Sequence record: OR455461.1
Origin: Staphylococcus phage AH12
Reading direction: 5' to 3' (one strand)
DNA: 64,000 nt
Within the stretch, counting starts at the first letter, position 1. Each line of letters starts with the position of its first letter. The notes beneath the pieces were generated by a model that saw nothing but the letters and a program-made list of their open reading frames with translations, had not been told where the DNA came from and did no database searches. Of the stretch, positions 921 through 63,392 are shown piece by piece. The translations under genes and the position numbers were made by a program.

Positions 921-1373
921 TTGGTGAATTATATCGCTAAAGATACAAAACATTTTAGAAAAGAAATATTTATGGCCCAAAATGTATATAACCGTCAAAT
1001 GATGTTAGATGACATGGAAGCCATGGGACAGACGATACAGAATTTAATCATTATGAAACCTGGTACATATCCAAACACTCCTGGTTTAGGAGTTGGTATT
1101 GAAGATTATTTATTTGAAATTTTAGATAATGATACAATTATGGATATAAGTGCCAATATAAATAATCAAATAACAAGATATATAGTTTCTCAGTCAGTAA
1201 ATGTTGAAGTAAGAATAAGTAAATTGGAAAATAGTAATGCAAATATAAATAGTTTAAAAATAGATGTTAATTTATCTGATGTGTTAGATATAAATAACCA
1301 ACAACTATTTTCATTTGTATTCGCTTCAAATAATTTAACTAAGAAAATGATAACTAAATTAGTACTTGCTTAA
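921..1373 (+). CDS. baseplate wedge protein, gp25/GPW-like
   Basis: The motif 'KPGTYPNTPGLGVGIEDYLFEILD' fits the GPW/gp25 signature (PGE.p..P.fGs.l..llFe). The protein is about 130-150 aa, and the true start is probably the ATG at about 973. Confidence 0.5.
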   Translation: MVNYIAKDTKHFRKEIFMAQNVYNRQMMLDDMEAMGQTIQNLIIMKPGTYPNTPGLGVGIEDYLFEILDNDTIMDISANINNQITRYIVSQSVNVEVRISKLENSNANINSLKIDVNLSDVLDINNQQLFSFVFASNNLTKKMITKLVLA

Positions 1374-1410
1374 ATATAAAATTAAAAGAAAAGAATGGAG
1401 AATATTATAA

Positions 1411-2862: not shown

Positions 2863-3151
2863 TCAATACTGTCGATAGTAAGCAATATAAGAAAAAAGTA
2901 TATGAAGATGCCGCTTATCTTGCTTATCTATTGGACCTCTTTGAAGGGCGTTTAAGTTTTAATGAAATACTTACTATGGATTTGAATATACTTAATTCAA
3001 TGACAAAAGCTAAAGAAAAAGAAATGAAAAATAAACGATTACAGCAGAAAAAGGTTGAATCTGCTACTAGAAAAGATTTTGATAATGGTATGCCTAAGTT
3101 GGATTTACCTAGACATCTTAATAGTTAATAAAGAAAGGATGGATTTTCCAG

Positions 3152-3445
3152 ATGGTTCTTAGTACAAAAGAAAGTCAGAAAATCCTTCATATTTATGATT
3201 CACTAGTTGATAATGATGAAAATCTTTTATCATCTTTATGTCATTCAAATAAAGGTTTACTTTTTGTAGACCTTTTATATGACATAGATTATAAAATTAA
3301 AGAAGGGTTTTCTAAAGATAATAATGAATTTAATTACATTATATTAGAAACTGAAGAAAAAGAAAAATTAAAAGAAAAAGCTCTTTATAAAAAAAATTTA
3401 AAAATTGAAGACAACAAGGATTCTATAAGAATTTCAGTAGTATAA
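3152..3445 (+). CDS. hypothetical small protein
   Basis: The ORF has an RBS 'aaggatgg' upstream and runs co-directionally with its neighbours. Confidence 0.35.
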   Translation: MVLSTKESQKILHIYDSLVDNDENLLSSLCHSNKGLLFVDLLYDIDYKIKEGFSKDNNEFNYIILETEEKEKLKEKALYKKNLKIEDNKDSIRISVV

Positions 3446-26706: not shown

Positions 26707-28965
26707 TCATTCAAATATAAAATTAGTTGAACCTGTATCATATACTTTATTTATATAAGTTTTATTTTTATCAATCTTATGTCTTATATAACTATCATTA
26801 CTTGTACCTTTTAAGAAAGTCTTTTCAATAGGTAATTCATTACCTACTTTATACATTCCAAATTTCTCAAATTTATAACATGTATATGAATCAGATTTTA
26901 CATTAAAAGTTAGACTTGGAAATATCTTTTTAATTTTAATTAAATCTGCGTCTGTATTTAAAAGTGAAATAAAATTATGTGATACATTAGTCTTATTATT
27001 AAAAGAAAATGCACAAATAATATAACCTTTATAATAAAGAGCGAAGAAGTCAGAATCTTTCCCATAAAAGTCTTCTGTTGAATGATTTTCAAAGAAATCT
27101 TTAAATGTAAAGAATCCCATAGATTTAATTTTTATATCACCATAATCTAATACAGAATAATCATCTTTAAATAGTAACAATTGATGTAAGAATTTAGCAT
27201 AATTCTTACCATCAATTCTTTTAGTTTCATTACGGATATCATCATCAAATAAATTAAGAAGATGGTACCCTTTTTCTTTAAGTTCATTGTATTTCTTAAG
27301 TTGATGATATTTAGCATTTATATCAGATTTAGTTTCATTGGAATGATATTTAACTCCATTAACTTCAATAGCCAATTTATACTTTTCAGAGAGTATATCA
27401 ATTTCTTTACCATCTAACAAATCTCTATTCTGTCTTTCTATATCAAAACCTAAATATTTCATTTCATCAGATACTTTTGATTCAGCAATAGAAGATTTTC
27501 CATTACTACATGACGGACAATTAATACCTTTTTCTATTAAATCATTTGCATTTATTTTAAATTCACCATGGTCTTTACATATTACTATTGATCTTTCATA
27601 TTTATCGTTAGGTCTAAATTTACTCATATTATATTTATCTTTACCATGTTTAATATTTGCAAGTGTTTGATATACTTCAGTCTTTTCTTCTTCAGTATAA
27701 TCAAAGTTATTAAGATTTTTAATCTTAGTATTAAGTGACTTTATACGTTTATACTCTTTTAATTCCTGAACAGAATATTTTCTCTTATTCTTTATTTTTG
27801 GTATTGATACTGATACTGAAACTATTTCTTTTTGATCTTCATTTGAATCTTTAACTTTATCTTTAACTTTATCTTTAACTTTATCTTTAACTTTATCTTT
27901 AATATTATCCTTAACTTTATCAATATCAAAATTATTAGAGATTTCTCTTTCTATATTTTCTTTCTTCATATTCTTTTTAATTTTCGGTGTTTTCTTTATA
28001 CCTTTAAGTAATTTCTCAGTTTCTTCTTCACGTTTCTTTTTATTATTCTCTACGATTTTTTCCCAGTCTTTATCTATACTAAGTTTTTCTTCTTCACATT
28101 TAGGACAAGCTAATTTTTTATCAAATAACATTTCGTGTATAGATGTTTTAAATTCACCATGTTTTTCACATATAATTGGTTGAATATCTTTTTCGTTAAT
28201 AGGTCTAAATTTAGAAAAATCATAGTTTGTATTATTAGCTTTATTTAGAGCTAAATCATAAATATGGTTTTTCTCATCTTCTGTATAATCTTTAGTCAAT
28301 TCTAAAAATAAATCAGGATCTATGTCTTTTAAATTATTAAAGATATTTTCAGTAGTTGCAACTTCTCCATCTTTCTTACAACCTGGACAGCCATCAAGAT
28401 TATTTATAAGAAAATTTTTAACTGAACTTTTAAAGCTACCATGTTTTTCACAGACTATATTTTGTTTAGTATTTATACTGTTCGGTTTAAAATTAGATAC
28501 ATCATAAGGAGAATATAGTCCATATTTAGCTATTGTAATATTATAGAAGAATAAATATTTTTCTTCTTTACTTTTATTCTTTAAATATCTAACTTTATCT
28601 TTCATTTTAGTAGAGCTATTTAAGAAAAATGTATAAGGTTCTAAAAATTCATTAGGATCTTCTACCATAGGAGATTCAAGTCGCTTAGTTCTTTCTTTAT
28701 TTTTTAAAAATTTCTCAGCGTTAACTTTATTTTCATTTTCTCCTGATTCAATTATTCTTAAACAGCTTTCAAAATAATTATCGAACCATTCTTTACTTTT
28801 AGTATATTTAATCATTCTTATTTTAAAATCTTCAGATATTTTTCCTTTATATGTTACTTTTACTTTATCTTCATTTATTTGATAATCTTTATCATTATCT
28901 ATATTAAATGTATAGTCATTACCTAATTTTTCTTTAAAGCTTTCTCTTAATTTTTTACCTAACAT
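26707..28965 (-). CDS. putative free-standing homing endonuclease: three zinc-finger-like repeats (CEKHGxFK...CPxC) plus a Vsr/DUF559-like PD-(D/E)XK nuclease motif (LAIEVNGVKYH); internal (KVKD)n repeat
   Basis: The 752-aa ORF carries 'CEKHGSFK..CPGCKK', 'CEKHGEFK..CPKCEE' and 'CKDHGEFK..CPSCS', then 'GKEIDILSEKYKLAIEVNGVKYHS'. A 12-bp tandem repeat lies at about 27845-27905. Confidence 0.5.
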   Translation of the reverse strand: MLGKKLRESFKEKLGNDYTFNIDNDKDYQINEDKVKVTYKGKISEDFKIRMIKYTKSKEWFDNYFESCLRIIESGENENKVNAEKFLKNKERTKRLESPMVEDPNEFLEPYTFFLNSSTKMKDKVRYLKNKSKEEKYLFFYNITIAKYGLYSPYDVSNFKPNSINTKQNIVCEKHGSFKSSVKNFLINNLDGCPGCKKDGEVATTENIFNNLKDIDPDLFLELTKDYTEDEKNHIYDLALNKANNTNYDFSKFRPINEKDIQPIICEKHGEFKTSIHEMLFDKKLACPKCEEEKLSIDKDWEKIVENNKKKREEETEKLLKGIKKTPKIKKNMKKENIEREISNNFDIDKVKDNIKDKVKDKVKDKVKDKVKDSNEDQKEIVSVSVSIPKIKNKRKYSVQELKEYKRIKSLNTKIKNLNNFDYTEEEKTEVYQTLANIKHGKDKYNMSKFRPNDKYERSIVICKDHGEFKINANDLIEKGINCPSCSNGKSSIAESKVSDEMKYLGFDIERQNRDLLDGKEIDILSEKYKLAIEVNGVKYHSNETKSDINAKYHQLKKYNELKEKGYHLLNLFDDDIRNETKRIDGKNYAKFLHQLLLFKDDYSVLDYGDIKIKSMGFFTFKDFFENHSTEDFYGKDSDFFALYYKGYIICAFSFNNKTNVSHNFISLLNTDADLIKIKKIFPSLTFNVKSDSYTCYKFEKFGMYKVGNELPIEKTFLKGTSNDSYIRHKIDKNKTYINKVYDTGSTNFIFE

Positions 28966-29150: not shown

Positions 29151-29519
29151 TACTTTTACGAGAAAAGTATAAAGTTGCTTTAATAATTTTTTATATCCTA
29201 TAAAGCATAAGAAGGATTAAAGAAACCAATATATGCATGGAACATATTAGGAATCTTATAGTGATATTTTAATAGTCTAGTTTTTCTTATATTAGGAACT
29301 AAAACTAGAAAACCTAAAGTGTATTAAAGTCAGATACTTATCACAAATTAATGTAAAATAAGTCCTCTTTAATACTTCTTTTTTAATACTTTTTTACAAC
29401 TAAAGATATGCCTTAACTTTAGTTGAATCTAATAAATTAAGTTTGGCATATCACTTAATTTATATTTTATTTATAGCAGGTCTGCAGCCAAGCTATAAGG
29501 ATGATTAATCCTATAGGGT

Positions 29520-29604
29520 TGTTCCTAATGAGATTCGAACTCATAACCTACAGATAAATTTTAATTCATAAATCTGTACGCTCTGACCATTGAGCTATAG
29601 GAAC
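29520..29604 (-). tRNA. tRNA-like gene (85 nt) with canonical acceptor, D and T arms but a non-canonical, expanded anticodon region (7-bp stem, 16-nt loop)
   Basis: The minus-strand sequence reads GTTCCTA-TA-GCTC-AATGGTCA-GAGC...ATGAG-TTCGAAT-CTCAT-TAGGAAC. The acceptor stem has 7 bp, the D-loop is TAGCTCAATGG and the T-loop is TTCGAAT. The anticodon arm does not fold as 5 bp plus 7 nt. Confidence 0.5.
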
Positions 29605-29964
29605 ATAGAAATTTAAAAAAAAATTAAAAGAGTACATTTATCATCTATGCACTCTTTTAAGTAAATAAATATATAATAATATCTATTAATTTTTAATTAT
29701 ACGTAAGGAGGCGTATGGATTTCTATTTAAAACCATGACATATTAAAAATAGAAACAAGAGAAACCAAAGAAACATTTTTAAACCAACAACGAGTGACAA
29801 AGTAAGTTATAATAGAATTTAATCTATTATATTTTTTAGTTAAATCAAAAACTAAAAAAAATCTATAATAATTTGACGAGAATCATTATAGATTTATACT
29901 ATATAGTTAATTAATATTTTTAAATAAAATTTTTTTAATAAATAGGAATTTTAGACCAAAAAAA

Positions 29965-30034
29965 AGCTTATCCGAGGGATCGAACCCCGGACACATGATG
30001 AAAATCATTGCTCTACCAACTGAGCTAGATAAAC
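29965..30034 (-). tRNA. tRNA-like gene (~70 nt) with canonical acceptor/D/T arms but a shortened anticodon arm (ATGAT-TTTC-ATCAT)
   Basis: The minus-strand sequence reads GTTTATC-TA-GCTC-AGTTGGTA-GAGC-A-ATGATTTTCATCAT-GTGTC-CGGGG-TTCGATC-CCTCG-GATAAGC. The anticodon loop appears to be 4 nt. Confidence 0.45.
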
Positions 30035-30072
30035 TTTCTTCATTATTATAATATATGTTTATATTTCACTAT

Positions 30073-30135
30073 ATTACGCTTTTAATAAATATAATCTTCT
30101 ATATCAATTTCATTTTGTTTAATTGTCATATATTC
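30073..30135 (-). repeat. duplicated 3' end of the beta-prime gene (15 codons MTIKQNEIDIEDYIY + stop), differing from the copy at 31402-31452 only at synonymous positions
   Basis: Alignment of 30088-30135 against 31405-31452 shows 3 mismatches, all synonymous in the beta-prime frame. Both copies are followed by TAA. Confidence 0.8.
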
Positions 30136-31366
30136 CTGAATTATGATAATACAATTTTCTTTTATTATCAAAAATTTTCATGGGTTCTTTGATTTCTATT
30201 TTATCTTTCATTTTTAAATAATGACTATATTTCATATTATCTAAAGAATTTGTTTTTACTTCTTTTTTGATAATATTTTCTAATTTTTCTTTTAAATTAT
30301 AATTTTCATTCTCATATAAAAATACAGTAGAAAATTTATTTTCTAAAAGAAATAGAGCTTTTTCTTGATGATAATATTTATCTTTAAATATTTCTGAATG
30401 CCAGTAAGCTCCATTACATTCGATAGCTATTTTTTCTTTAATATCATCAATATATAAAATTATATCAATTTCTCTTTTACCAATAAATTTATTATTTTCA
30501 ATATGATAACTATAATTTTCGTTGTCTAAAATTTCTTTTAATTCATCCAATACATTAATTTCAAATAATGAACGTTGTTTAGAATTACATTTACAACCTC
30601 TAGGACGATATCTATCATAATTTATATAATCTTTAAAAATAGTATTACATTTATTACATCTAAATGAATATATAAATTCTGAATTTATACCTTTAAATTC
30701 ATCATAAGTGTTTAAAATGTCTATATCATATTTTTTTAATAAATTCTTTAAATTATAATAAGTTTTATTTTTTCTAATTTTATTTAATTTTTCTTTTATG
30801 GTGTCATTTTTCATAGGATTGTCTACACCATATCTATTGATAAAAGATTCTTTTATTATATTTGACATATTAGGTATTTCATAAATATTATTAGCATCAA
30901 ATTTATTTTTTATTTGATCTTTAATATTTATGAAATTCCCATTATTTTTTAAAGTATTATGTGATTTAGAAGATATTACTTTATTTTTCATAGGATTGTC
31001 TACACCATATTTATCAATAAAAGCTTTCTTTCTTTTAATATTAAAATCTTCTATTTTATTCATATTGCTTGTTCCATACTTATCTTTTAAAGTTTTTCTT
31101 CCTTTTTCATATTTTTCAGGATCTTTCATAGAACAACTTCTAGAACAATATACTCCTAATTTATGTTTATTTTTTACAAATTTAACTTTATTTTTTCTAC
31201 AATACTTACAGTAAATTACAGAATTTATATCATTTCTTATATAGTACATTCTTTCAGATAAATTTACATCTTTAAATTCATTTAAAAAATCAGTGTATTT
31301 AATAATATCATTTTTATATTTATTTAAAGCAGGTCCTTTTATTTTCTTAATTTGTTCTAATTGCAT
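30119..31366 (-). mobile_element. free-standing homing-endonuclease gene (415 aa) inserted immediately downstream of the beta-prime stop codon; three KYGVDNPMKN repeats, Cys pairs, Vsr/DUF559-like motif IAIECNGAYWHSE
   Basis: The protein carries 'REIDIILYIDDIKEKIAIECNGAYWH', comparable to Vsr 'RPDIVFP..AIFVHGCFWH', and three 'KYGxDNPMKN' repeats. Its position and the flanking target duplication are recorded under the 30073-30135 repeat. Confidence 0.55.
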
Positions 31367-31401: not shown

Positions 31402-32956
31402 TTAATAAATATAATCTTCGATGTCTATTTCATTTTGTTTAATTGTCATATCATGGAAAGACTTCATAGAGCTTGTTACAATTGCTTGAGCTACCTGATT
31501 GACTAATAAACCAATATTTTCTATACCTAATTTGTAAGGGAGTTCTCCTGCACATTTACTACAGATATCTTCACTTGCACAATACATAGGACTTCTGAAG
31601 TTCAATACTTTCCCAATATGCTCATCTACATTTGAAGTAGTTAACAGTGTTAATTGACCTTTTCTTCCTGAATTATCTTCAAAATATCTATAAAGTAAAA
31701 GATTCGCATTATCTTTAGTTAAAGTTAATTTTAATGTATGTTTTGTTCTACAATCAGAACCTTGTTTATCTAATACAGTTGTTTGGAAAGCAGACATAAG
31801 TTTTTTAGCTTGATCATTTTATTATCTATATTTTATTATAGATTAGACTATATCTTATGAATTTAATCATTTCTATATTTAGTCGTTGAACAACTTAATA
31901 AAGTTGATGCTAGTTAGTTTTTAACATTCTAGCAATTAATAGAATTTATTGTGAGCATCTAATTTACCCACCTTCTTGAGTCATTTATGTTAATCTATAT
32001 TAATTTAATATAGATCAGACTATATCAAAAACTCTTTATGAGTTTAATTATATTTAGTCGTTGAACAATCATTCTGATTGATGCTGATTAAGTTTATCTC
32101 TTCTCAGCAATTAATAATTTTTCTATTATTACATTACTATAATAAAGGGCATTCATATACCTAAAGCACGTCCAGCTGAACCAGCAGTCATAATGTCTCC
32201 AAACATATATAGTTCTTCTGGATCAATTCCATCAGCTAAAGAACTCTTAGCAATACGTATTTTACTAGGATCAGCGAAGTTTTTATTTGCTCCACGTATT
32301 AATGCAGTTAACTTGAAGTTATTTCCAAAACTACCTCTTGATCCACTATCATAAATATCAAGGTCTGCTAAACCTTCTAATTCTTCTTTACTTAACTTAA
32401 TTAATTCTTTTTCAATAGCACTAATAGCATTCAATTCTTCACCAGGAGTATTTAATGCTTTACCATATTTCTCTAGTAATTCTTCTTTCTTTTGTTTAAC
32501 TTTATCAGGAGCAACCATCATTGTAGTTGTCAAACTAGAATTAATAAATCCTGCTATAGAGAAACCAAGCCATTGAAGTTTATCAATATACATATTCATA
32601 TCTTTAGTTGTAATAACATCATTAAGTAATAAACTAGATAACTCAGATTGTAGATTTCCTACACCTGATCCTCCCATATCTTTATTCATATATCCTATAA
32701 TAGGTCCTATTTTATTGTCTAATATAAATTTATTAAATATATATCTTCCAACTGTTGTTCTTTCATCTTTACTATTATAAACTAAATCTTTTTTAAGTTT
32801 AAATCTATCGCTAGGATTAAACATTGGTTGTGTATTTTGTCTAAATGCAAATAATTCTTTAAGTTTATCAAGAGTAATATCTTCTTTTTTTATACTTAAT
32901 AAAGTTGATACTTCTTTCTCAGATAAATCTTTTTTATCATAAGTCATATTAACCAA
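31402..32956 (-). CDS. RNA polymerase beta-prime-like subunit, C-terminal half, interrupted by two group I introns; proposed exons 32956..32155, 31981..31962 (mini-exon), 31794..31402
   Basis: 'FRSPMYCASEDICSKCAG...IENIGLLVNQVAQAIVTSSMKSFHDMT' aligns to E. coli beta-prime '[21 protein letters not shown]...[25 protein letters not shown]'. 'KQGSDCRT' aligns to 'TEDDCGT'. Exon A ends GRALGI. The mini-exon restores 'YSRRWVN' (compare 'GYLTRRLVD'). The joined exons total 1215 nt and are in frame. Confidence 0.7.
31795..31961 (-). mobile_element. group I intron (beta-prime intron B), ORF-less, ~165 nt
   Basis: Minus-strand core elements are present: P AATTGCTAGAAT, Q AACTAGCATC, R GTTCAACGACTAAAT and S AGATATAGTCT. 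A 5' junction GGTAAAT|TAGATGCTC is also present. Confidence 0.65.
31982..32154 (-). mobile_element. group I intron (beta-prime intron A), ORF-less, ~170 nt
   Basis: Minus-strand elements are P AATTGCTGAGAA, Q AATCAGCATC, R GTTCAACGACTAAAT and S TGATATAGTCT. The 5' junction is GGTATAT|GAATGCCCTTTATTATAGTAAT and the 3' junction is ATAAATG|ACT. Confidence 0.7.
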
Positions 32957-33272: not shown

Positions 33273-36200
33273 GTGAAGTATCTTAATAGATTAAAGAATT
33301 TAAAATTCTATTCAATTTCAGGATATAAGATTAAAGCTATAGATGAAAATATTAAGGATCAAAAGAAAAACCAATTAATAATTTATAAAGGTTTTAAAGA
33401 AAATTCATTTATAGAATTCTTAAATAGTGGTATATTATATTATCAAAATTTCAAGAATATTTATACTCCTAGAATATATAGAACAGCAAATAGAAAATCA
33501 AGATTAATTACTAATATTTCAGATTATCAACAAGAAATTAAAAGTAAATCAATTAAATCTTATAGAGTTGAAAGAAATGAGAAATTATTTAAAGGAAGAA
33601 ACTATATAGTTGATTCAAGTAAATTTATCAATCTTGAAGATAAATCTTTAATGACTAAGAATTTTAAAACTGTATCAGATTCAATTAAAAATACTTATAA
33701 TAATTTAAATAATCCAGAAGAATATGAAAATTTATTATATGTAATTAATGTAGATGGATACAATAAATCTTCTCAAGAAGCTATTAGACCAAATACAAAA
33801 GATTTTATGTCAAGTTTATTTATGATGATTAAGAATCAGGAAGAATTACCTCATAAAGAAAATCAAAATGTAGTAGCTTTATTTATTTCTATTGAGAACG
33901 GTATAATGTTTAAATTTGATTTTAAAGATTATAATAAATTCAATAATAGATTAAGACAAAGATTAAGAAGAGCTATTGATTTAAATACACAACAAATAGA
34001 TACAGATGAAATTTCTAATGTTGAAGATGATGATAATACAGAAGCTATAGATTCAACTATTAAAAAGAAATCATTTAGCAATGTTAAAGATATTGATCCA
34101 GTTGAATTACAAGATAAGAATGAAGATGAAGTTAATCAGGATATTGAAGATTCTAAGATGGAAAAAATATCTAAGAAAATAGATGATACATTAAGATATA
34201 TTAAATCTAATGATAATATTGATATGGATATTAATGATGAATATAATATTGCAATGATAATTGAAAAAGAATTAAACAATAATAATGATCTTATTGATAT
34301 TGATGAAGATACATTATACAATGATGTACTTGATAAGAATGATTCATTTAAATCAATTAAAAGAGATATTAAAAATAAATCATATATTGGAGACACTGCA
34401 TTAAAGAATTCTAAAAAGATATTATCACTAGCTAAAAATCAAGATGAATATCTTGAAAAATTAGAAGATTTTAGTTTCTCTGAAGATAGTATTATTGATA
34501 GAGAAATTAATGAAAATGTCAATAGTATTAATGATGAAGCAATAAACAATGTATCTTCAAATGATTTTGACTTATCTTATATGAAAAAGACATTTAATAA
34601 AGACTTTGTAAATATTATGAAGAGTTTTAATGATAAGGAAGAAATACCAGTATTCATTAACAAAATGAATGTAGAAGATAATTCAGATTCTCAATCATTA
34701 AAGAATACTGTAAAAGTTCAATTTAAGAGTCCTGATGGAATTAACCATAATGTAAAATTTGATGTACCTAAAATTATTGATGGTAAATATTTAAAATTAA
34801 ATGGTGGTAAAAAGGTTCTAACTAAACAATTAATGATGTATCCTATTGTTAAATATAGACCAGATACAGTTTGGATTACAACTAATTATAATAAATTTAT
34901 CATTGAAAAATTTGGTACTAAAGAGAATTCTGAAACTGAATGGCTTAAAAAAGTTATTGAAGATAAACAAGTACTAGAATACATTAAAGATAAAAATGAT
35001 ATTAATATTCAAAAAGGTAACTCATCTTTAATTAATAAAGAATATTTAACTTCTGTGTTGTATAATAATTTATCTAAAAATATATTAAGATTCTCTAAAG
35101 ATGATTTGATAATTGATTTTAATCAAAGAAATCTTAAAAAAGTTATTTCAGAAAGTAAAACTTTAAGTGAAATTGATTATGATAAAGATAAATACTATCC
35201 TATCGGTTATAGTTCAAACAAATCTAAATTAATATTGTCAAATACTACAGAATCTATTATTTTTAAAGCTACTAAAAGTAATATAGAATCTATGAATATT
35301 AATATTACAGATTATATTATTGAACAACTTGAAGATAATATTGATTTTAGTCTAATAGATAAAAAATTCAGTAAAAATATTCAAGCTAGTAAAACAATGG
35401 CATTTTCTCGTGTTAAAATTACTAATAAATTAATTCCTACAATAGTATTATTAGGTTTCTATAAAGGTTTAACTAGTATTCTTGATCTTTATGAAGTTGA
35501 TTATAAGTTTGTTGAAGAAAATGAAAGAATAACTATTAAAGATAAGAAGAATAAAATTAAATTCCAAAATGGTTATCTTATTTATTCAACAGATAAATTA
35601 AGATATGATTTATTATTATCAGGATTAAATACTATTCCTACTTCACAATATGACTTTGAAGAATTTAATAGTGAAACACCTTACTTAGAATACTTTAATG
35701 ATAAGTTCTATAGTCGTAATGTTGGTAAAGGAATTAAAAATGCATTAGATTTAGCAATGGATCCTATTACAGAAGATGTATTAAGAGATTTAAAATTACC
35801 TGAAACTATGGTTGAGTTATTACTCTTAGCTAATACCATGCTAGAAGATGTAACTGCTAGAGAACACAATGACATGGGAATATATCGTGTACGTGGTCCA
35901 GAACAAGTTAATGCTTTAATGTATAAAATGATTGCAAATGCATATAAAGAATATTCTGACTCTTACAATAATAAGAATCCTAAGAATATTTCAGTTAAAC
36001 AAGACCAATTAATTAAAACTATTATGGAACAACCTACTGTAGATGAAGTATCTGATCTTAATCCATCTTTAGAGATTGATAAGATGACTTCAGTAACTTT
36101 TAAAGGTCCAGCAGGACGTAATAATGAACAATCATATGAACCTGATATTCGTTCATATAGTGAAAGTATGCAAGGCGTATTAGGAATATCTAGTCCTGAT

Positions 36201-38095
36201 AGTAATAAAATTGGGGTAGTTAGACAGCTTTCATATAATTCATTAATTAAATCTACTAGAGGTTATACTGATGGCGGTAAAAAAGATGCTAATGATACAT
36301 CTCTATACACTCCATTAGAATTACTTAACCCTTATTCTAGTAGACATGCCGATAATCAAACATGGATAGTCGGCTTAAAAACTATTTAATTGCTGAAATT
36401 ACTTTAAAGTTAATCAGCATCAATCAAATTGTTCAACGACTAAATAATAGATACTAATTATATAATTAGTAATGATATAGTCTCAACTATGTATAAAGTA
36501 TATAGAAATAAGATAATGTCTCCACGTATTGGAATGACTGGTATATGAATGCCCTTTATTATAGTAATATAATAATAGAAAAATCTTTAATTGCTGAGAA
36601 AATAATAATTAAGTTAATCAGCATCAATCAAATTGTTCAACGACTAAATAAGATTATACCTAAACGGTATTTGATATAGTCTCAGCTTTAATTTATTTTA
36701 AAGAAGTTCATTAAGAACTAATACACAATAAACAAAGTGTATTAAGATAATCTGACTCAAGCCAAGCACGTAATTCCAACAAAAACTAATAGTAAACCAT
36801 TAGTTGGATCTGGTGTTGATAAATCTTTAGCTTATCAATTATCAGATACATTTGCTTTTAAAGCTAAACAAGATGGTAAAGTATTAAAAATTAACGAGAA
36901 AACTGGTTTAATGACAGTAGAATATATCAATGGTGAAAAAGATATTGTTGATATATCTGAAAAATTAGCCAAAAACTCTAACTCAGGTTTTTATCAATCT
37001 AATAAACTTGATCCACAATTTAATGTAGATGACACTTTTAATAAAGGTCAAATACTTGCTAAAAATAATAATTTCTTTGCTGGATCCGGTAAAGATAATG
37101 ATATTCAATTTACTTCAGGTAAATTATCTAAAGTATCTGTAGCTAGCTCATATGGTATTATAAATGCCTTTCATTATAGTAATGTAATGTCAAAAAATTA
37201 TTAATTGCTGAGAAATATTAAATTAATCAGCATCTCTACATTTATAGAGTTCAACGACTAAATATGATTATTCATTAATACTAATGAATTTGATATAGTC
37301 TAATCTATTATAAAAATATAATAGCTAATATAAATGACTTATGAAGATAGTTCTATTATTTCTAGTAGTATGTCTGAAGCAATGTCTACTAAAGTTACTA
37401 TGAAGAAAACAGTAAATATTCCATCAAACACAAATATTCAATATATAGTTAAAGAAGGTCAGAAAGTACGTACAGGTGATCCTTTAATGATATTTGAAAC
37501 TTCATTTGATGAAGAAGGTATTGGTTCTTTATTAGATAAAATCGGTAGTGAATTTGAACAAGATATTCAAGATATAGCTAATCGAGCTGTTAGAAGTAAA
37601 TATACAGGTAATATTAAAAAGATTAATATTTATTATAATGATGATATTGAAAATATGACTGATAGTTTAGCTAAATTAGTTAATAATTACATTAAAAAAT
37701 CAAATGATAAATATAAAGAATATAAATCTGGAGTTAAAAATAATAAAGAAACTTTACCTGGTATTGATGTAGATATTGCAGCTGTAGAGAAAATTAATAC
37801 AGAGAAAATTAAAGGAGAAAAAGTTGACGGAGTTCTTATTGAAATCTTCACTGAATATGAAGATGATATGAGTGTTGGAGATAAAATTAGTTTCTACGGA
37901 GCTTGTAAAACTGTAGTTGCTGATGTAACTCCTCCAAATGAATCACCTTATTCTGAATATAGATCTGATGAAGAAGTTGAAGCTGTATTCTCTCCATTAA
38001 GTATTGTCTCTCGTATGACAGTTGATATTTATATGATGTTATTCACAAATAAAGCTTTAATAGAATTAAAACGTAAAGTAAAAGATATGGTATAA
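33273..38095 (+). CDS. RNA polymerase beta-like subunit interrupted by three group I introns; proposed exons 33273..~36383, 36513..36546 (mini-exon), 36747..~37160, ~37337..38095
   Basis: The exon-1 C-terminus 'GPAGRNNEQSYEPDIRSYSESMQGVLGISSPDSNKIGVVRQLSYNS' aligns to E. coli beta '[46 protein letters not shown]'. 'LLNPYSSRHADNQ' aligns to 'LIPFLEHDDANR'. Exon-3 'QAKHVIPTKTNSKPLVGSG' aligns to 'QRQAVPTLRADKPLVGTG'. The in-frame stops at 36387 and 37202 fall inside intron cores. Confidence 0.65.
36384..36512 (+). mobile_element. group I intron (beta intron 1), short-form 5' region, ORF-less
   Basis: P AATTGCTGAAAT lies at 36388, Q AATCAGCATC at 36412, R GTTCAACGACTAAAT at 36431 and S GATATAGTCTC at 36474. 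A P8-like hairpin is TACTAATTATATAATTAGTA. The 3' junction is TAAG|ATAATG. Confidence 0.6.
36547..36746 (+). mobile_element. group I intron (beta intron 2), ORF-less, 200 nt
   Basis: The 5' junction is GGTATAT|GAATGCCCTTTATTATAGTAAT. The P, Q, R and S elements lie at 36589-36683. The 3' junction is TAAG|ATAATC. The exon joins are in frame and give ...MTGIY|NLTQAKHVIP. Confidence 0.65.
37160..37336 (+). mobile_element. group I intron (beta intron 3), ORF-less
   Basis: The 5' junction is GGTATTAT|AAATGCCTTTCATTATAGTAAT. P lies at 37204, Q at 37226, R at 37250, a P8 hairpin is ATTCATTAATACTAATGAAT and S lies at 37286. The 3' junction is ATAAATG|ACT, analogous to beta-prime intron A. The exact splice sites remain ambiguous, since both 37336 and 37350 are possible 3' ends. 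Confidence 0.55.
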
Positions 38096-50222: not shown

Positions 50223-51069
50223 AACCTCTAATAATATCATCATCAGAAAGTTCTATTTTAGAACTTGCATCCATTTTATTTATTTCATCTGTATCTATTG
50301 TTTCTTTAATGAATTCTATTTTTAAATTCATTCCTAAAGAATTGATAACTGTTTCCATAGTCTTCCAAGTTAATTTTCCTTGTTTGATCATTTTATCTAA
50401 AGATGATTTTAGTTTACTTACTACATTAACTTCATCTGAATTCTTTTCTATCTCACCAAATAACATTTCAAATGTATAACCTTCATTACCTAATATTTCT
50501 AAGAAATCCACAAATTCTAGTATATATTCTTCATATAAAACATCTGGCATTAATTTAAATCCTAGTTTACCTGAAAATTTAGATGTCTTAGTTTTTCTTT
50601 TAGGATTATATAAAGTTAATTCATCTTTATCTTTAAATTCCTCTGAAACTAATGAAGCTTTATATCCAATTACTTCACAAATACTAATTAATGAATGTAT
50701 AGTAAATACTTTACTACTCTTCAATCTATACATAGTGTTTTTAAATGAATCGATTTCACCTTCACCATATACTTTAGCATATCTTTCAAAATATTCTTCG
50801 AAAGTCATTCCTTCTTTATCGCCTACAATATTTTCCATAAATTGAATTACCTTTTTACCTAAATAAGGTAATTTATCATATTCTTCTTTAGTAACAATTC
50901 CTTGTATACTACCATGATATTTTGAAGAATTTGATTGTTCTTCTTGATCTTCCATTTCATCATTTAATTCAGTATATCTGACATCTTTAAATACCGATTT
51001 AACATCAACTTCGTCTACATTAGATATAATTCTTTCTAATTCGTCTGAAACATCTCTATTGTTTTTCAT
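50221..51069 (-). CDS. hypothetical acidic protein
   Basis: The ORF encodes 282 aa. Confidence 0.45.
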   Translation of the reverse strand: MKNNRDVSDELERIISNVDEVDVKSVFKDVRYTELNDEMEDQEEQSNSSKYHGSIQGIVTKEEYDKLPYLGKKVIQFMENIVGDKEGMTFEEYFERYAKVYGEGEIDSFKNTMYRLKSSKVFTIHSLISICEVIGYKASLVSEEFKDKDELTLYNPKRKTKTSKFSGKLGFKLMPDVLYEEYILEFVDFLEILGNEGYTFEMLFGEIEKNSDEVNVVSKLKSSLDKMIKQGKLTWKTMETVINSLGMNLKIEFIKETIDTDEINKMDASSKIELSDDDIIRG

Positions 51070-51149
51070 TTACATAATCTCCTTACAGTATATAAAAAAT
51101 AAATATAATATTGGTATAATGTGAAATTAATCACATTATACCGTATTTA

Positions 51150-52355
51150 TTAAATTCCTAAATCATCATCTTTATCTAATTCTTTACTTTTACTTGTAAA
51201 TTTATCTAATAACGATTTTGATCTACCTTGGTCTTCTTCATTTTCTTCATTTACATTATTCGATAAGTCTTCCATAGATCCAGATTCTTTATTAACCTCT
51301 GCATCTTTAAACATTGTAGATTTATCAATTTGTCTATCTTCTTGTTGATTTTTAACTTCTGTTTTATCAGCAAAAGGTAAATCGTCATCAGTAATGTTAT
51401 TCGCTGCACCAAAAGGATTTTCTGGAGTACTTTGTTGTTGATTTTGAGGTGTATTATTTACATTGCCGAAAGGATTTGGATTTGATTGTTGCTGTTGTTG
51501 AGGTTGATTAAAATTACCAAATTGATTATTTGATTGTTGAGGAGCATTATTCTGTTGTTGATTAAATCCTCCATTATTATTACCAAAATTTCCAAAACCA
51601 TTATTTTGTTGATTAAATCCACCTGAGTTATTTTGTTGTCTTGGAGCGTTATTATATGAAGCTTTCTCATCCATATGGTGATTAGACATATCAGTTGGTA
51701 AACCTTGAGCTCTTAGTAATCCTTTAAGTAATTGATTATTCTCAATTTCTTTAGCTTGCATTTCAGCTTGTACACATTGATTTCTAAATGTTAAAGGATC
51801 ATTAGTAATTCTAACTAATAAATTAACTAAATTAATAAAAGCATTTGCTGAAATGAAATCATATTTATTATTATCATTTACAATAATAGCAAAACCGATT
51901 TCAGTTGAATTAGTACGTTTATTAACAATTGTAGTTGGAGCGAAAGCAATACCTTTACCTGAAACTAAGCTAGGTGATTGCCAAATATGATTTTGATACT
52001 CAGCAGTTACTTGATTATTTTGGAAAATACTATTAAAGTTTTCACCAATACTCTTGTAAGTAGCTTTTAAGAAATTATTAAATTCTTGTAAGTGTGGATA
52101 ACTAATTAATACATCCTCTGAAATAGGTGCTTGACCTTGTTGGAATTTACTGTAAGAGAATGAAATATAATGGTTGCCGTTATTTTCAATTTCACTTAAA
52201 AATGGAATATTGTTATACTGACTTGATTTATAAGTATTGATATATTCACCATTAATAGCATTACCAGTGTTTTTATTCTTTCTAGCAAATAGTGTGTAAA
52301 TTGAAACTGAAACATTTTGTCCTCGGTATAGATGGTCTTTGAAATTTGTTAACAT
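51150..52355 (-). CDS. possible single-stranded DNA-binding protein: Q/N/G-rich linker followed by SSB-tail-like DDDLPF motif
   Basis: 'GGFNQQNNGFGNFGNNNGGFNQQQNN...' is followed by 'ITDDDLPFADK', comparable to the bacterial SSB C-terminus DDDIPF. An extra extension of about 60 aa follows. Confidence 0.35.
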   Translation of the reverse strand: MLTNFKDHLYRGQNVSVSIYTLFARKNKNTGNAINGEYINTYKSSQYNNIPFLSEIENNGNHYISFSYSKFQQGQAPISEDVLISYPHLQEFNNFLKATYKSIGENFNSIFQNNQVTAEYQNHIWQSPSLVSGKGIAFAPTTIVNKRTNSTEIGFAIIVNDNNKYDFISANAFINLVNLLVRITNDPLTFRNQCVQAEMQAKEIENNQLLKGLLRAQGLPTDMSNHHMDEKASYNNAPRQQNNSGGFNQQNNGFGNFGNNNGGFNQQQNNAPQQSNNQFGNFNQPQQQQQSNPNPFGNVNNTPQNQQQSTPENPFGAANNITDDDLPFADKTEVKNQQEDRQIDKSTMFKDAEVNKESGSMEDLSNNVNEENEEDQGRSKSLLDKFTSKSKELDKDDDLGI

Positions 52356-61522: not shown

Positions 61523-63392
61523 TTAAGCTCCTTTACTTTTTATTTTATCAGATACTTTCTTAGCTGCAACATTCAATGGAGGTAAACCATGAAATTCTTG
61601 AGCAAAGGATACACTATCTTGACTGTTAAATTTACTAATAAATTCAGTATTAAAGTCATAATTTAATTTGTCTTCTTCATACTTAGGAACTGTCATTGTA
61701 GATTTATCTCGTATTTGAATTTTACCTATGTGTCCTTCAGGAGTTATATTAAATCCTCTAATAATTGAAGGATATAGTGAACTCAAGTCAAAGTCACATA
61801 CATTACTAAATATTCTATTAGATCTAATATCTTTACCTTTAACTAAAATATCTCCCATACGTTCTATTAAAGTCATATTAGCTACAAATCCACCACGTAT
61901 TTTATCTGCATTTGGATCAGATAGTATTTTAGAGTGATTATTACTTAATACAAATCCTTGATTTTCAAAGAAGACAGAACTACGATTTCTTAAACAAATA
62001 GTTTTCTTAAGTGCTTTACTTGGTCTAGTTCTAGTCATATCTACAATAGAGAATAGTAAATCAAACATATTAGTGTTCTTCTCTATTAAAGCAGTTAATA
62101 TGGTATCTTTAATATTATAAAGAATGAATGTGTAATAATCTCTAAAATGTAAATCAGAGATAGAGCCTTCATATACATCCTTTTTAATTCCAGTTTCTTT
62201 TTCACCAACATCATTTAACTTAACTGATTCCATTACACCGTTCGGTTTATTCACATTTGCATATAAAGCTAATTGGTCAATCCAGTTAGTGTATGAGTTA
62301 GTTTCGAATGTAGATGATCTATTAGCTGCATCTGTAGCATTCTTATCTAATCTATAATAAGCTTTTTTATCTTGTAAATCTTTAGAACAGAAATAATCTG
62401 CTGGATCTTCTCCATTAACTTTAATTCTTTCAAATATAGTTGCAAAGTCAAAATCTAGATTCCATGCGGTACATATATCAGGCTTACTAATTTCATTAAT
62501 ATAGTATAAGAATGATTTAATAATTTCCATTTCAGTATCTAATTCATATATTTCAAATTCTAAACCTAAATCTTCTCCAATCTCACTATCTTTATTATTA
62601 TAAATATTATTTAGATCTTCCATTAATTTAGTTTTATCTGTCATAACTTCATTATAATTATCCGTATCATATTTTAATGCAAATGTTAAACATTTACGTT
62701 TACTCCAATCAACTACAGTTATAATATTAATTTCAGCCATTCCTGGTTCAGGGACATTTATATTAACTTCATACAATTGTATAAAGATTAGACTATATCT
62801 TATCAATATCAGTGATAATTATATTTAGTCGTTGAACACAATTAAATGTGATGCTGATTGTCTTTAAACTTTTCAGCAATTAATAATTTTTTAATTGAGC
62901 TACCTAAAACCCAATTACATTTGATCCATCTACCTCTATATCAAATAGACATATATCAATTCCAACTTTACTATCTAAGTTTTGTTTGATATATTCATTG
63001 ATATTATAATCTTCAATATTAATATCAGATCCATGAACATTATTCATTAAATGAAAATCTTTTAATTTTCTAAACTCTTCATAATTACCTGAAGATAATA
63101 TTCTATCGTATTCTGATTTATCTTGAGCATTACCTGCTTCTCTAACTATAGATTTAATAACATCTTTATGTTTACAATGTACAGTTCTAACTTTCTCTTT
63201 TGCCATAGAACCTACAACTTGACCAGGTGGTAACCAATATTCATCTTTAGTAACATAATAGTGCATCATTGGATCCACTATTTCCATATGTTTTTTAGTT
63301 CCATCTTCTTCTTTAACAACCATTACTACTTTTTCTTTTTTATTAGATGTTTCTTTTTTATTCAAATATGTTGATTTTATAAAACGACCCAT
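61523..63392 (-). CDS. family B DNA polymerase, N-terminal part (3'-5' exonuclease motifs I-III + polymerase motif A), interrupted by a group I intron; proposed exons 63392..~62906 and 62754..61523
   Basis: Exo I is 'LFDIEVDG', Exo II is 'TAWNLDFDFATIFERI' and Exo III is 'YYTFILYNIKD'. Motif A is 'DFDLSSLYPSIIRG'. Motifs B and C were not found in this window. Confidence 0.65.
62755..62905 (-). mobile_element. group I intron in polB, ORF-less, short-form 5' region
   Basis: Minus-strand elements are P AATTGCTGAAAAG, Q AATCAGCATC, R GTTCAACGACTAAAT and S AGATATAGTCT. The 3' junction ATAAATG|TCC matches the other introns. The first about 17 codons of track ORF 61523-62806 are intronic. Confidence 0.65.

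What the first reader, a model, noticed from the sequence alone, without database searches (positions are those of the whole stretch)
31402..32956. RNAP beta-prime C-terminal gene split by two back-to-back mini group I introns flanking a 20-nt mini-exon
The protein matches the beta-prime conserved regions (CxxCYG...[13 protein letters not shown]-like, and DCGT). Two ORF-less introns of about 170 nt with canonical P/Q/R/S cores interrupt it. The proposed join restores 'YSRRWVN' (beta-prime 'GYLTRRLVD') and keeps the frame. Both introns begin at GGTA(T/A)AT| and use ...AAATG| or ...ATG| 3' sites. A 20-nt exon between twin group I introns in an RNA polymerase gene is unusual and worth recording.
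Basis: partly seen in the sequence, partly recalled or inferred. Interest (0 to 1): 0.8.

Follow-up and report, generated by a model that had tools for sequence, protein, structure and literature searches.

The report
Two mini-introns split phage polymerase gene
A Staphylococcus jumbo-phage RNA polymerase gene is interrupted by two very small group I (self-splicing type) introns that lie only 16 coding bases apart; this is real and the public annotation misses it, but it is one more case of a habit already known in phages and mitochondria.

Summary
The core observation holds, but the splice sites are wrong. The window comes from a Staphylococcus jumbo phage about 97% identical to phage Machias. 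The minus-strand gene 32947..31402 encodes the middle fragment of the virion RNA polymerase beta-prime subunit, not the C-terminal one. Two ORF-less introns interrupt it: 32158..31982 (177 nt) and 31965..31815 (151 nt). They flank a 16-nt exon, ACTCAAGAAGGTGGGT (31981..31966), not a 20-nt one. This join gives 405 aa that align without gaps to intron-free homologues in phages S6 and Madawaska (...GRALG|TQEGG|YQAKKL...). Phage PB50 lacks intron 1 precisely and keeps intron 2. Both introns have a group I core (P1, P3-P9, U.G at the 5' site, terminal G). Compensatory changes across 30 copies in Machias support it. Rfam scores them only 23-26 bits, against a threshold of 50. No RNA data exist, so splicing is inferred. 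The window holds four more family members, including a second tandem pair around a 24-nt exon. Machias has tandem pairs around 11-nt and 6-nt exons. Published precedents are Twort orf142 (23 nt), Coxiella 23S (34 nt) and fungal mitochondria (12-15 bp). I class it as a new member of a known kind, of moderate interest.

The parts
32159..32947 (-). Exon 1 of the virion RNAP beta-prime middle-fragment gene (ATG at 32947; ends ...GCT TTA GGT, Gly263).
   Evidence: ORF list, translation, and gap-free alignment to the S6 and Madawaska proteins.
31982..32158 (-). Intron 1, 177 nt, ORF-less and group I-like. It starts ATATGAATGCC and ends AAATG (terminal G at 31982). Helices: P1 32161-32157/32152-32148 (GGU.AU/AUGCC, with U32159.G32150 at the splice site); P2 32145-32138/32133-32126 with a GUAA loop; P3 32119-32114/32051-32046; P4 32109-32104/32087-32082; P5 32100-32098/32092-32090; P6 32080-32075/32071-32066; P7 32061-32055/32022-32017; P8 32044-32040/32034-32030; P9 about 32016-32006/32002-31992.
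   Evidence: Absent precisely in PB50, S6 and Madawaska. Rfam Intron_gpI scores 23.4 bits with E 3e-4 over model positions 1-253 in a narrow search. The CM built from intron 2 scores 49.8 bits, E 7e-6. MFE fold z = -3.76. Helix coordinates.
31966..31981 (-). Mini-exon, 16 nt, ACTCAAGAAGGTGGGT. It encodes Thr-Gln-Glu-Gly-Gly plus the first base of Tyr. Its last 6 nt form the 5' strand of intron 2's P1.
   Evidence: Intron-free alleles read GGT-ACTCAAGAAGGxGGGT-ATCAxGC. TQEGG is invariant in S6 and Madawaska. It aligns to TADSG of the bacterial beta-prime bridge helix.
31815..31965 (-). Intron 2, 151 nt, ORF-less and group I-like, with no P2. Helices: P1 31971-31965/31957-31951 (GUGGGU.A/U.GCUCAC, with U31966.G31956 at the splice site); P3 31944-31939/31876-31871; P4 31934-31929/31913-31908; P5 31925-31923/31919-31917; P6 31906-31901/31896-31891; P7 31886-31880/31850-31845 (C31885 bulged); P8 31870-31867/31860-31857; P9 31842-31837/31830-31825. 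Terminal G at 31815.
   Evidence: Absent in S6 and Madawaska; present in PB50, Machias and LY01. Rfam Intron_gpI scores 26.0 bits with E 4e-5 over model positions 1-253. MFE fold recovers P1, P4-P6, P8 and P9, z = -3.26. Pair list.
31402..31814 (-). Exon 3 (ATCAAGCT...; completes the Tyr codon, then QAKKLMSAFQ...DCRT...CSKCAG...SFHDM..., stop at 31404-31402).
36354..36518 (+). Family member: intron A (165 nt) in the virion RNAP beta gene (P1 GCCGAU/GUCGGC).
   Evidence: CM hit, sequence, and colinearity of the spliced product with DC4, S6 and SA1.
36519..36542 (+). Second mini-exon in the window, 24 nt (TCTCCACGTATTGGAATGACTGGT = SPRIGMTG), between beta-gene introns A and B.
36543..36754 (+). 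Family member: intron B (212 nt) in the beta gene. It is of the intron 1 type and has the same insertion site, GGT^ACTCAAG.
37157..37336 (+). Family member: intron C (180 nt) in the beta gene. It is of the intron 1 type, with insertion site GGT^ACTTATG.
62755..62908 (-). Family member: 154-nt intron in a family B DNA polymerase gene (FDIEVDGSNVIG|FPEPG). It is of the intron 2 type (P1 UUGGGU.U/A.GCUCAA).
   Evidence: (72.9 bits).

Best explanation
The gene for the middle fragment of the phage's virion RNA polymerase beta-prime subunit carries two independent, ORF-less, very compact group I introns. They sit 16 nt apart, inside the codons for the bridge helix.

Each intron RNA is predicted to fold into the standard group I core (P1, P3-P9; intron 1 also has a P2 with a GNRA loop). 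A free guanosine bound in P7 would attack after the U of a U.G wobble pair in P1 (after 32159 and after 31966). The freed exon end would then attack after the intron's terminal G (31982 and 31815). Ligation gives exon 1 + 16-nt exon + exon 3, which encodes a 405-aa protein with an intact bridge helix (...GRALG-TQEGG-YQAKKLMSAFQ...).

The 16-nt exon serves both ribozymes. Its first bases can pair with intron 1's internal guide (P10) and its last six bases are the exon strand of intron 2's P1.

Shown here: the boundaries, the colinearity, the core helices and the covariation. Inferred: that splicing happens at the RNA level, that it is autocatalytic, and how the introns got there. The likely history is that intron 2 arrived first and intron 1 came later as a copy of a subfamily that targets GGU^ACU sites.
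For: (1) Boundaries. Intron-free alleles in S6 and Madawaska read ...CTAGGT|ACTCAAGAAGGxGGGT|ATCAxGC.... PB50 lacks intron 1 exactly and keeps intron 2. Machias and LY01 have both.

(2) The spliced product is 405 aa, 85% identical and gap-free against the 408-aa intron-free proteins across the junctions. Other relatives have ORFs that stop just after ...GRALG or ...GTQ(A/E)GG, so both sites are occupied independently elsewhere.

(3) Group I features. Every one of the six window copies has U at -1 and G at the 3' end. All have a U.G pair in P1, a P7 matching the G-binding consensus, and A-rich J4/5.

(4) Rfam RF00028 aligns both introns end to end (model 1-253) at 26.0 and 23.4 bits, E 4e-5 and 3e-4 in narrow searches. 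The same R...S signature marks bona fide Rfam group I hits in other viral contigs.

(5) Covariation. A model built only from intron 2 finds intron 1 (E 7e-6) and exactly four other copies in the window. On 12 distinct sequences, 96.4% of cells pair against 30-50% when partners are slid, and 31 of 38 pairs show double changes. On 30 Machias copies the figures are 95.5% against 32-48%, and 32 of 38.

(6) P10. Loop L1 reads UGAAU in intron 1 and beta intron B (3' exon ACUCA) and UAAAU in beta intron C (3' exon ACUUA). That is a compensatory G-C to A-U change.

(7) The protein is a beta-prime homologue: phmmer to bacterial beta-prime gives E 3e-6, with GY..KKL....Q...DCRT aligned to GY..RRL....Q...DCGT, and PHROG 2962 gives 1e-76.
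Against: There is no transcript, RT-PCR or proteomic evidence, so splicing is inferred from comparative genomics only. Both introns fall far below Rfam's gathering score (50 bits), and the standard window-wide scan missed them. Intron 1's P1 uses only 3 exon nucleotides (GGU), and its P10 contains an A.C mismatch. The introns are 21-23% GC and lack all peripheral stabilising domains, so unaided self-splicing at physiological conditions is uncertain. P7 and most of P4 are invariant, so they give no covariation evidence. Alignments A5 and A6 were fitted to the model, and in P2-bearing copies the model's P1 was aligned to P2, so the helix 1 counts are mixed.
Confidence: 0.9

Rival explanations
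1. One reading: 5' sites after GGTATAT and GGTAAAT, a 20-nt exon, and intron 2 ending at the ATG 31797-31795. This gives ...GRALG-IYSRRWVN-SAFQ....
For: The join is in frame (401 aa). Both proposed 5' exons end in U and both proposed introns end in G. RRWV loosely resembles the bacterial TRRLV.
Against: Intron-free alleles contain ACTCAAGAAGGxGGGT followed directly by ATCAxGCTAAxxAxCTxATG, so those 20 nt are exon. ATAT and AAAT are absent from the intron-free alleles, so they are intron. All homologues read TQEGGYQAK(K/Q)LM at this point. The U.G wobble pairs of P1 sit at 32159 and 31966, not 4 nt downstream.
Confidence: 0.01
2. There is a single intron of about 360 nt (two exons), as in the GenBank annotation of the identical locus in phage Machias. 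Equivalently, obligatory exon skipping removes intron 1, the mini-exon and intron 2 together.
For: Machias CPT_Machias_171 is annotated as a join of 2 pieces, and the locus tags skip only one number. Exon skipping by tandem group I introns is documented for Twort orf142 and Coxiella 23S rRNA (PMC10136302).
Against: Joining exon 1 directly to exon 3 shifts the frame and stops after 19 codons ('SINGLE'). Any in-frame two-exon join must drop the invariant bridge-helix residues TQEGG(Y). PB50 carries the mini-exon fused to exon 1 with only intron 2 present. The two units are each complete group I cores.
Confidence: 0.03
3. There is no splicing. The interruption is a genuine gene split, and two polypeptides (267 aa and 131 aa) assemble into the polymerase, as PB50 and LY01 annotate it (two CDS).
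For: Jumbo-phage beta and beta-prime subunits are naturally encoded in pieces (PMC7598289). PB50 and LY01 records list two CDS. An ATG opens the downstream ORF.
Against: This would delete 11 conserved bridge-helix residues that are encoded in the gap in the correct frame only after removal of two group I-shaped units. No Shine-Dalgarno sequence precedes ATG 31797 (sequence). The 16-nt exon is identical in LY01 although the surrounding introns have diverged to about 80% identity, which indicates selection on it as coding sequence.
Confidence: 0.04
4. The introns are spliced at these sites but are not autonomous ribozymes. Being so small and AT-rich, they need a phage or host protein (a maturase or chaperone) or low temperature to fold.
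For: The introns are 151-177 nt and 21-23% GC, have no peripheral domains, and have MFE values of only -32 and -42 kcal/mol. Intron 2 has no GNRA loop-receptor pair. Korn et al. report that these phages do not form plaques or grow efficiently at 37 C.
Against: All catalytic core elements are present, and intron 1 keeps a GNRA L2 loop. No intron-encoded protein exists. Nothing here tests protein dependence either way.
Confidence: 0.3

Closest known systems
Staphylococcus phage Twort orf142 introns I2 and I3 (group I, subgroup IA2)
   Same: Both are Staphylococcus phages with tandem group I introns in one protein-coding gene separated by a very short exon (23 nt in Twort). The upstream intron's P10 and the downstream intron's P1 must share that exon. 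Exon skipping is possible (PMC10136302).
   Different: The exon here is shorter (16 nt). The introns are much smaller (151 and 177 nt) and fall below Rfam's threshold. They lie in a multisubunit RNAP gene of a jumbo phage. blastn finds no similarity to Twort-like phages. Splicing is untested here, whereas Twort's is experimentally shown.
Intron-disrupted RNAP genes of AR9 and the MarsHill/Madawaska/Machias phages (Korn et al., bioRxiv 10.1101/2020.12.14.422802)
   Same: This is the same phage group and the same gene. [quoted passage not shown] Machias annotates this very gene as joined.
   Different: The Machias record joins only two pieces, so the second intron and the 16-nt exon are not annotated. 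The paper's text, as far as I read it, does not assign a ribozyme class or structure. AR9's homologue has no intron at these sites.
Coxiella burnetii 23S rRNA tandem group I introns
   Same: Two group I introns flank a short exon (34 nt), with exon skipping observed (PMC10136302).
   Different: That case is an rRNA gene in a bacterium with introns of different subgroups. This case is a protein-coding phage gene with two related introns.
Micro-exons between mitochondrial introns in fungi (for example Armillaria cob, cox1 and cox2 exons of 12-15 bp)
   Same: Exons of similar or smaller size lie between organellar introns and are missed by automatic annotation (PMC6506933).
   Different: Those are organellar, with introns that are usually long and often carry homing-endonuclease ORFs. 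I did not check that both flanking introns are group I in those cases.
Collaborative homing of ORF-less group I introns with free-standing homing endonucleases (reviewed in PMC3984707)
   Same: ORF-less introns sit in conserved sites of essential phage genes. A free-standing homing-endonuclease-like ORF lies directly next to the gene (30119-31366, phrog_3339) and is absent at that spot in Machias.
   Different: The endonuclease's target site is unknown, and no link to these intron insertion sites was tested.

Membership tests
Group I intron (Rfam RF00028 Intron_gpI) | Conserved core of paired regions P3-P9, comprising the P4-P6 and P3-P7-P8-P9 domains | tested here: met
   All helices can be drawn for both introns, and the MFE folds recover most of them. 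Covariation: 96.4% and 95.5% of cells paired against 30-50% in slid controls, 31-32 of 38 pairs with compensatory changes, and 0/500 shuffles reaching the observed values. Caveat: the alignments were fitted to the model.
Group I intron (Rfam RF00028 Intron_gpI) | 5' splice site follows a U that forms a U.G wobble in P1 with an internal guide sequence | tested here: met
   Intron 1 has GGU|AU / AUGCC (U32159.G32150). Intron 2 has GUGGGU|A / UGCUCAC (U31966.G31956). The same holds for the other four window copies. The positions coincide with the boundaries defined by intron-free alleles.
Group I intron (Rfam RF00028 Intron_gpI) | Terminal guanosine (omega-G) at the 3' end of the intron | tested here: met
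   All six window introns and both LY01 copies end in G exactly at the boundary given by intron-free alleles.
Group I intron (Rfam RF00028 Intron_gpI) | Guanosine-binding P7 with conserved R/S sequences and a bulged nucleotide | tested here: met
   A.C(bulge)GACUA pairs with UAGUC.U. The strings UUCAACGACUAAAU and GAUAUAGUCU match the Rfam consensus (UUCAaAGACUAAA, AAGAUAUAGUC) in the cmscan alignments. They are invariant in all copies, so sequence supports this feature but covariation does not.
Group I intron (Rfam RF00028 Intron_gpI) | Score at or above the curated gathering threshold (50 bits) | tested here: not met
   There was no hit in the window-wide scan or in a 1.8-kb scan at E<=10. 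Narrow scans of the introns alone give 26.0 and 23.4 bits. The alignments are full length (model 1-253) with large deletions in P2, P5, P6 and P8, so the shortfall reflects miniaturisation and not a different fold.
Group I intron (Rfam RF00028 Intron_gpI) | Guanosine-dependent self-splicing | not testable with these tools
   This needs an in vitro transcription and GTP-labelling assay or RNA from infected cells.
Multisubunit RNA polymerase beta-prime subunit (jumbo-phage virion RNAP, middle fragment) | Homology to beta-prime regions F and G (bridge helix, DCG(T) loop, CxxC...FH trigger-loop start) | tested here: met
   phmmer to bacterial beta-prime chains gives E 3e-6 to 1e-2, aligning GY..KKL....Q..DCRT with GY..RRL....Q..DCGT. 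PHROG 2962 'RNA polymerase beta subunit' gives 1e-76. The Machias annotation reads 'viral RNAP beta-prime, mid-domain'. There is no Pfam hit.
Twintron (intron inserted within an intron) | One intron interrupts the sequence of another, so that the inner one must be removed first | tested here: not met
   The two introns are separate complete cores. They are divided by 16 nt that are coding sequence in intron-free alleles.
Mobile group I intron with homing endonuclease | Intron-encoded homing endonuclease ORF | tested here: not met
   The longest open frame inside the intron pair is 27 codons. Endonuclease-like ORFs are free-standing nearby.

The most novel reading that the evidence does not exclude
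The roughly 150-nt, 22% GC introns may be complete, protein-independent self-splicing ribozymes. By my recollection that would make them smaller than the roughly 205-nt Azoarcus intron usually quoted as the minimal natural group I ribozyme. The family (at least 30 copies in Machias) may have spread within the genome by guide-sequence-directed reverse splicing into GGU^ACU-type sites. Its micro-exons (24, 16, 11 and 6 nt) would force neighbouring ribozymes to share one exon for P10 and P1, so their splicing would have to be coordinated to avoid lethal exon skipping.
Probability: 0.25. Interest if true: 0.7.

Novelty: new member of a known kind. Interest (0 to 1): 0.45.

Why it matters
- **Annotation.** It corrects public annotation of an essential gene. 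The Machias record joins two exons and omits five bridge-helix residues or misplaces a junction. PB50 and LY01 list two unrelated CDS.
- **A detection blind spot.** Rfam's group I model at its gathering score misses a whole family of compact introns. That includes 6 copies in this window, 30 in Machias, and 12 of 13 model-matching copies in metagenomic jumbo-phage contigs. Rfam-based surveys of phage introns therefore undercount them.
- **An experimental system.** The locus offers natural test cases for two questions: how small a group I ribozyme can be, and how two ribozymes share a 6-16-nt exon without skipping it.
- **Insertion sites.** The introns sit in catalytic-centre codons: the bridge helix here, the Mg-binding aspartate motif in Machias, and ExoI of the DNA polymerase. 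This fits the known preference of selfish introns for sites that cannot tolerate imprecise loss.

Tried and rejected
1. Rfam at gathering score on the whole window, and at E<=10 on 1.8 kb, found no intron hit. Only scans of the introns alone gave sub-threshold hits.

3. Pfam on the spliced protein gave nothing.

4. I asked whether the phage reverse transcriptase explains intron spread or precise loss. Its homologue is present in all nine Staphylococcus jumbo phages, including the four intron-free ones. There is no correlation, so the idea is neither supported nor excluded.

5. My first model of the Machias scaffold-gene mini-exon (15 nt) gave an in-frame stop. An 11-nt exon, using the next G as the terminal G, is in frame and colinear.

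6. Literature searches for the smallest known group I intron and for the AR9 genome and Twort orf142 primary papers returned nothing usable. The size comparison with Azoarcus therefore rests on my memory.

7. I considered a P8/3'-exon resemblance in intron 1 (AACUCA versus ACUCAAG) as a guide element. I dropped it because the sister intron beta-B has a different P8.

8. I did not attempt a subgroup assignment (IA2, IC3 and so on), because no tool here classifies subgroups.
Full report
**What is there.** The region is read on the minus strand. ORF 32956..32153 (267 aa; the likely start is the ATG at 32947) and ORF 31797..31402 (131 aa) are separated by about 355 nt. That gap consists of two tandem, related units with 172-175 nt spacing. 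It has no open frame longer than 27 codons on either strand. Each unit carries the strings TTCAACGACTAAAT and, 30-40 nt downstream, GATATAGTCT. Both strings occur exactly, in that order, at six places in the window and nowhere else: 31877-, 32052-, 36432+, 36636+, 37250+ and 62823-. With 25% GC I estimate about 0.002 exact matches of the 14-mer by chance, so this is a repeated element family and not a coincidence.

**Source and gene identity.** The region is 96.6% identical to Staphylococcus jumbo phage Machias (MW349128), 93% to PB50 and 81% to LY01. It is related to S6, PALS_2, DC4, SA1, MarsHill, Madawaska and, distantly, Bacillus phage AR9. In Machias the gene is annotated as 'viral RNA polymerase beta-prime subunit, mid-domain', joined from two pieces. 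A separate gene encodes the C-terminal fragment. The spliced protein has no Pfam hit. It matches PHROG 2962 (RNA polymerase subunit, 1e-76) and bacterial beta-prime chains by phmmer (E 3e-6). In that alignment ...TQEGGYQAKKLMSAFQ...SDCRT... lies on ...TADSGYLTRRLVDVSQ...TDCGT.... From my own knowledge of beta-prime, that is the bridge helix (region F). The C-terminal CSKCAG...SFH stretch corresponds to the start of the trigger loop.

**Splice sites.** Group I rules require a U.G wobble in P1 at the 5' site and a terminal G. By those rules I placed the junctions as follows:
- Exon 1: 32947..32159.
- Intron 1: 32158..31982 (177 nt).
- Mini-exon: 31981..31966 (ACTCAAGAAGGTGGGT, 16 nt).
- Intron 2: 31965..31815 (151 nt).
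- Exon 3: 31814..31402.

This join gives a 405-aa ORF. It aligns without a single gap to the uninterrupted 408-aa proteins of S6 and Madawaska (85% identity), and ...SAGRALGTQEGGYQAK(K/Q)LMSAFQ... is invariant.

The DNA alignment is decisive. The intron-free alleles read ...CTAGGT-ACTCAAGAAGGxGGGT-ATCAxGCTAAG.... PB50 lacks intron 1 exactly at my boundaries while keeping intron 2. Machias and LY01 have both introns. In LY01 the introns have diverged but the mini-exon is identical. Database proteins that terminate just after ...GRALG or just after ...GTQ(A/E)GG show that each site is occupied independently in other phages.

It is in frame, but it yields GRALG-IYSRRWVN-SAFQ and removes 20 nt that are exon in every intron-free allele. 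Only its intron 1 3' site is right.

**Are they group I introns?** Rfam found nothing at its gathering score or in a 1.8-kb scan at E<=10. When each intron is scanned alone, RF00028 aligns it end to end (model 1-253) at 26.0 bits (E 4e-5) and 23.4 bits (E 3e-4), against a threshold of 50. The alignments have deletions in P2, P5, P6 and P8.

Both introns can be drawn with P1, P3, P4, P5, P6, P7, P8 and P9. Intron 1 also has a P2 capped by a GUAA tetraloop. Unconstrained MFE folds recover most of these helices, with z-scores of -3.3 and -3.8. P7 (A.C-bulge.GACUA / UAGUC.U) and the flanking J6/7 and J8/7 strings match the group I consensus. The same R...S signature marks more than 120 IMG/VR contigs, many of which are strong Rfam group I hits in tandem arrays.

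A covariance model built only from intron 2 (window, Machias and PB50 copies) finds intron 1 (49.8 bits, E 7e-6) and exactly four further copies in the window. It also finds 30 in the complete Machias genome. Pair counts are as follows:

| Alignment | Cells paired | Slid controls | Pairs with double changes | Shuffles reaching observed |
|---|---|---|---|---|
| 12 distinct sequences | 96.4% | 30-50% | 31 of 38 | 0/500 |
| 30 Machias copies | 95.5% | 32-48% | 32 of 38 | 0/500 |

There are three caveats. These alignments are fitted to the model. In P2-bearing copies the model's P1 was aligned to P2, so helix 1 is mixed. P7 and most of P4 never vary. P3, P5, P6, P8 and P9 carry the covariation. 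For example, P3 is UUCUAU/AUAGAA in intron 2 and AAUUAU/AUAAUU in intron 1, and P6 is CAACUU/AAGUUG versus CAAUCA/UGAUUG. I conclude that they are genuine but miniaturised group I introns. The one membership criterion they fail is the Rfam score cut-off.

**How the pair would work (inferred).** Intron 2's guide GCUCAC pairs with the last six bases of the mini-exon (GUGGGU), and GAU just upstream of the guide can pair with AUC of exon 3 (P10). Intron 1's P1 is a short hairpin, GGU|AU-AUGA-AUGCC, that uses only three exon bases. Its loop UGAAU can pair with ACUCA at the start of the mini-exon, with one A.C mismatch. In the related beta-gene intron C the loop reads UAAAU and the 3' exon ACUUA, which is a compensatory change that supports this P10. 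So the 16-nt exon provides P10 for the upstream ribozyme and P1 for the downstream one, with 5 nt to spare. Skipping it would shift the frame and truncate the protein, so inclusion must be efficient. Work on engineered tandem Tetrahymena introns found that different splice-site recognition elements in the two introns suppress skipping (PMC10136302). Here the two introns do have different P1 and guide sequences.

**Origin (inferred).** The six window introns are 57-81% identical to each other. Intron 1, beta-B and beta-C form a P2-bearing subgroup inserted at GGT^ACTCAAG, GGT^ACTCAAG and GGT^ACTTATG. Ten identical bases at two unrelated sites argue for sequence-directed insertion. That could be reverse splicing guided by P1 and P10, or an endonuclease with that target (both routes are reviewed in PMC3984707). 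The phage's reverse transcriptase is present in intron-free relatives too, so it offers no correlation. By blastn the family is confined to five Staphylococcus jumbo phages: Machias (at least 27 places), LY01 (at least 28), PB50 (20), Madawaska (12) and MarsHill (8). It is absent from S6, DC4, PALS_2 and SA1. PB50 has intron 2 only, and another lineage also has only that site occupied. This suggests that intron 2 came first.

- In this window, the virion RNAP beta gene (33273..38095) has three family members. Two of them flank a 24-nt exon (36519..36542, SPRIGMTG). The spliced product is colinear over 208 aa with DC4, S6 and SA1.
- In Machias, the scaffold/protease gene has three introns (annotated as two), with an 11-nt exon TATGACTGGGT.
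- Also in Machias, the non-virion RNAP beta-prime N-terminal gene is annotated as unspliced. It has two introns around a 6-nt exon, GCCGAT, encoding the Ala-Asp of the catalytic GADYDGD motif. The spliced stretch is colinear over 100 aa and exactly 300 nt with seven intron-free phages.
- In the literature, Twort orf142 has a 23-nt exon and Coxiella 23S rRNA a 34-nt exon between group I introns (PMC10136302). Armillaria mitochondrial genes have 12-15-bp exons (PMC6506933).
- Korn et al. already state that RNAP genes of these phages are intron-disrupted.

What is new is the two-intron, 16-nt-exon structure of this gene, which no record annotates. Also new are the group I assignment and structure of this compact family, and the fact that Rfam's threshold misses it. 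Of the 13 model-matching copies in metagenomic contigs, only one passes the threshold, and that one is really a 296-nt intron. The DC4 paper's 'Rfam found no introns' happens to agree with blastn for that phage, but the method would not have seen this family.

**Verdict.** It is a new member of a known kind (phage group I introns in tandem around a micro-exon). It is of moderate interest, mainly as an annotation correction, as an Rfam blind spot, and as a natural minimal-ribozyme and micro-exon system.

Noticed in passing
window 33273-38095 (+): The virion RNAP beta gene carries three introns of the same family (36354-36518, 36543-36754, 37157-37336). The first two are back to back around a 24-nt exon (36519-36542, SPRIGMTG). 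The spliced 1421-aa ORF is colinear with the intron-free DC4, S6 and SA1 genes.
   Followed up: yes
window 62755-62908 (-): A 154-nt family member interrupts a family B DNA polymerase gene right after the ExoI motif (FDIEVDGSNVIG|FPEPG). It joins ORFs 63392..62909 and 62754..61523 into a 571-aa frame.
   Followed up: partly
L126 (Machias MW349128) 2799-3166: The non-virion RNAP beta-prime N-terminal gene is annotated as an unspliced 374-aa CDS. It actually contains two mini group I introns (182 and 180 nt) around a 6-nt exon, GCCGAT (2981-2986), which encodes the Ala-Asp of the catalytic GADYDGD motif. The spliced form (436 aa) is colinear with seven intron-free phages.
   Followed up: yes
L127 (Machias record 50924-52258), locus 1273-2035 (-): The prohead scaffold/protease gene has three mini-introns (154, 179 and 159 nt), although it is annotated as three exons. 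Two of them flank an 11-nt exon, TATGACTGGGT (locus 1442-1432), confirmed against S6 DNA.
   Followed up: yes
L126-L131 (whole Machias genome): The covariance model finds 30 copies in Machias. Some are tandem pairs in the TerL region, the vRNAP beta-prime-N gene, the vRNAP beta-N gene and the nvRNAP beta-C gene. One (L128 15612-15767) overlaps the annotated 3' end (15638) of the beta-prime-N CDS and extends about 130 nt beyond it, which suggests a missed downstream exon.
   Followed up: partly
L130 5564-5644 and 27914-28072; L127 29283-29431: Full or partial mini group I cores lie directly upstream of TnpB/IS605-like 'transposase' ORFs in Machias (CPT_Machias_208, _224 and _089). One of these sits inside the intron of a virion protein gene. 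The arrangement resembles IStrons.
   Followed up: no
L060, L086, L077, L031, L032, L037, L090 (IMG/VR jumbo-phage-size contigs): Twelve full-length matches of 140-175 nt to the mini-intron model occur in metagenomic viral contigs, and Rfam reports none of them at its gathering score. Compact group I introns therefore look systematically under-detected.
   Followed up: partly
window 30119-31366 (-) and 26707-28965 (-): There are two free-standing homing-endonuclease-like ORFs (phrog_3339; Pfam DUF7487/DUF723 plus a weak, sub-threshold REase_MTES_1575 match). The first abuts the 3' end of the beta-prime gene and has no counterpart at that position in Machias. It could be a partner for collaborative homing of the ORF-less introns.
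   Followed up: partly
window 29517-29605 (-) and 29964-30035 (-): There are two tRNA-like genes with abnormal anticodon arms. One has a 4-6-nt loop (ATGAT-TTTC-ATCAT). The other has an 18-nt insert between the anticodon stem strands. ARAGORN calls a 2-nt anticodon in both, and Machias annotates the homologues as pseudo tRNA-Asn.
   Followed up: no
L021, L023, L048 (IMG/VR contigs): Dense tandem arrays of canonical Rfam-positive group I introns occur in other large viral contigs: up to 11 within 4 kb in L023, with 60-140-nt exons. Intron clustering is therefore widespread in big viruses.
   Followed up: no
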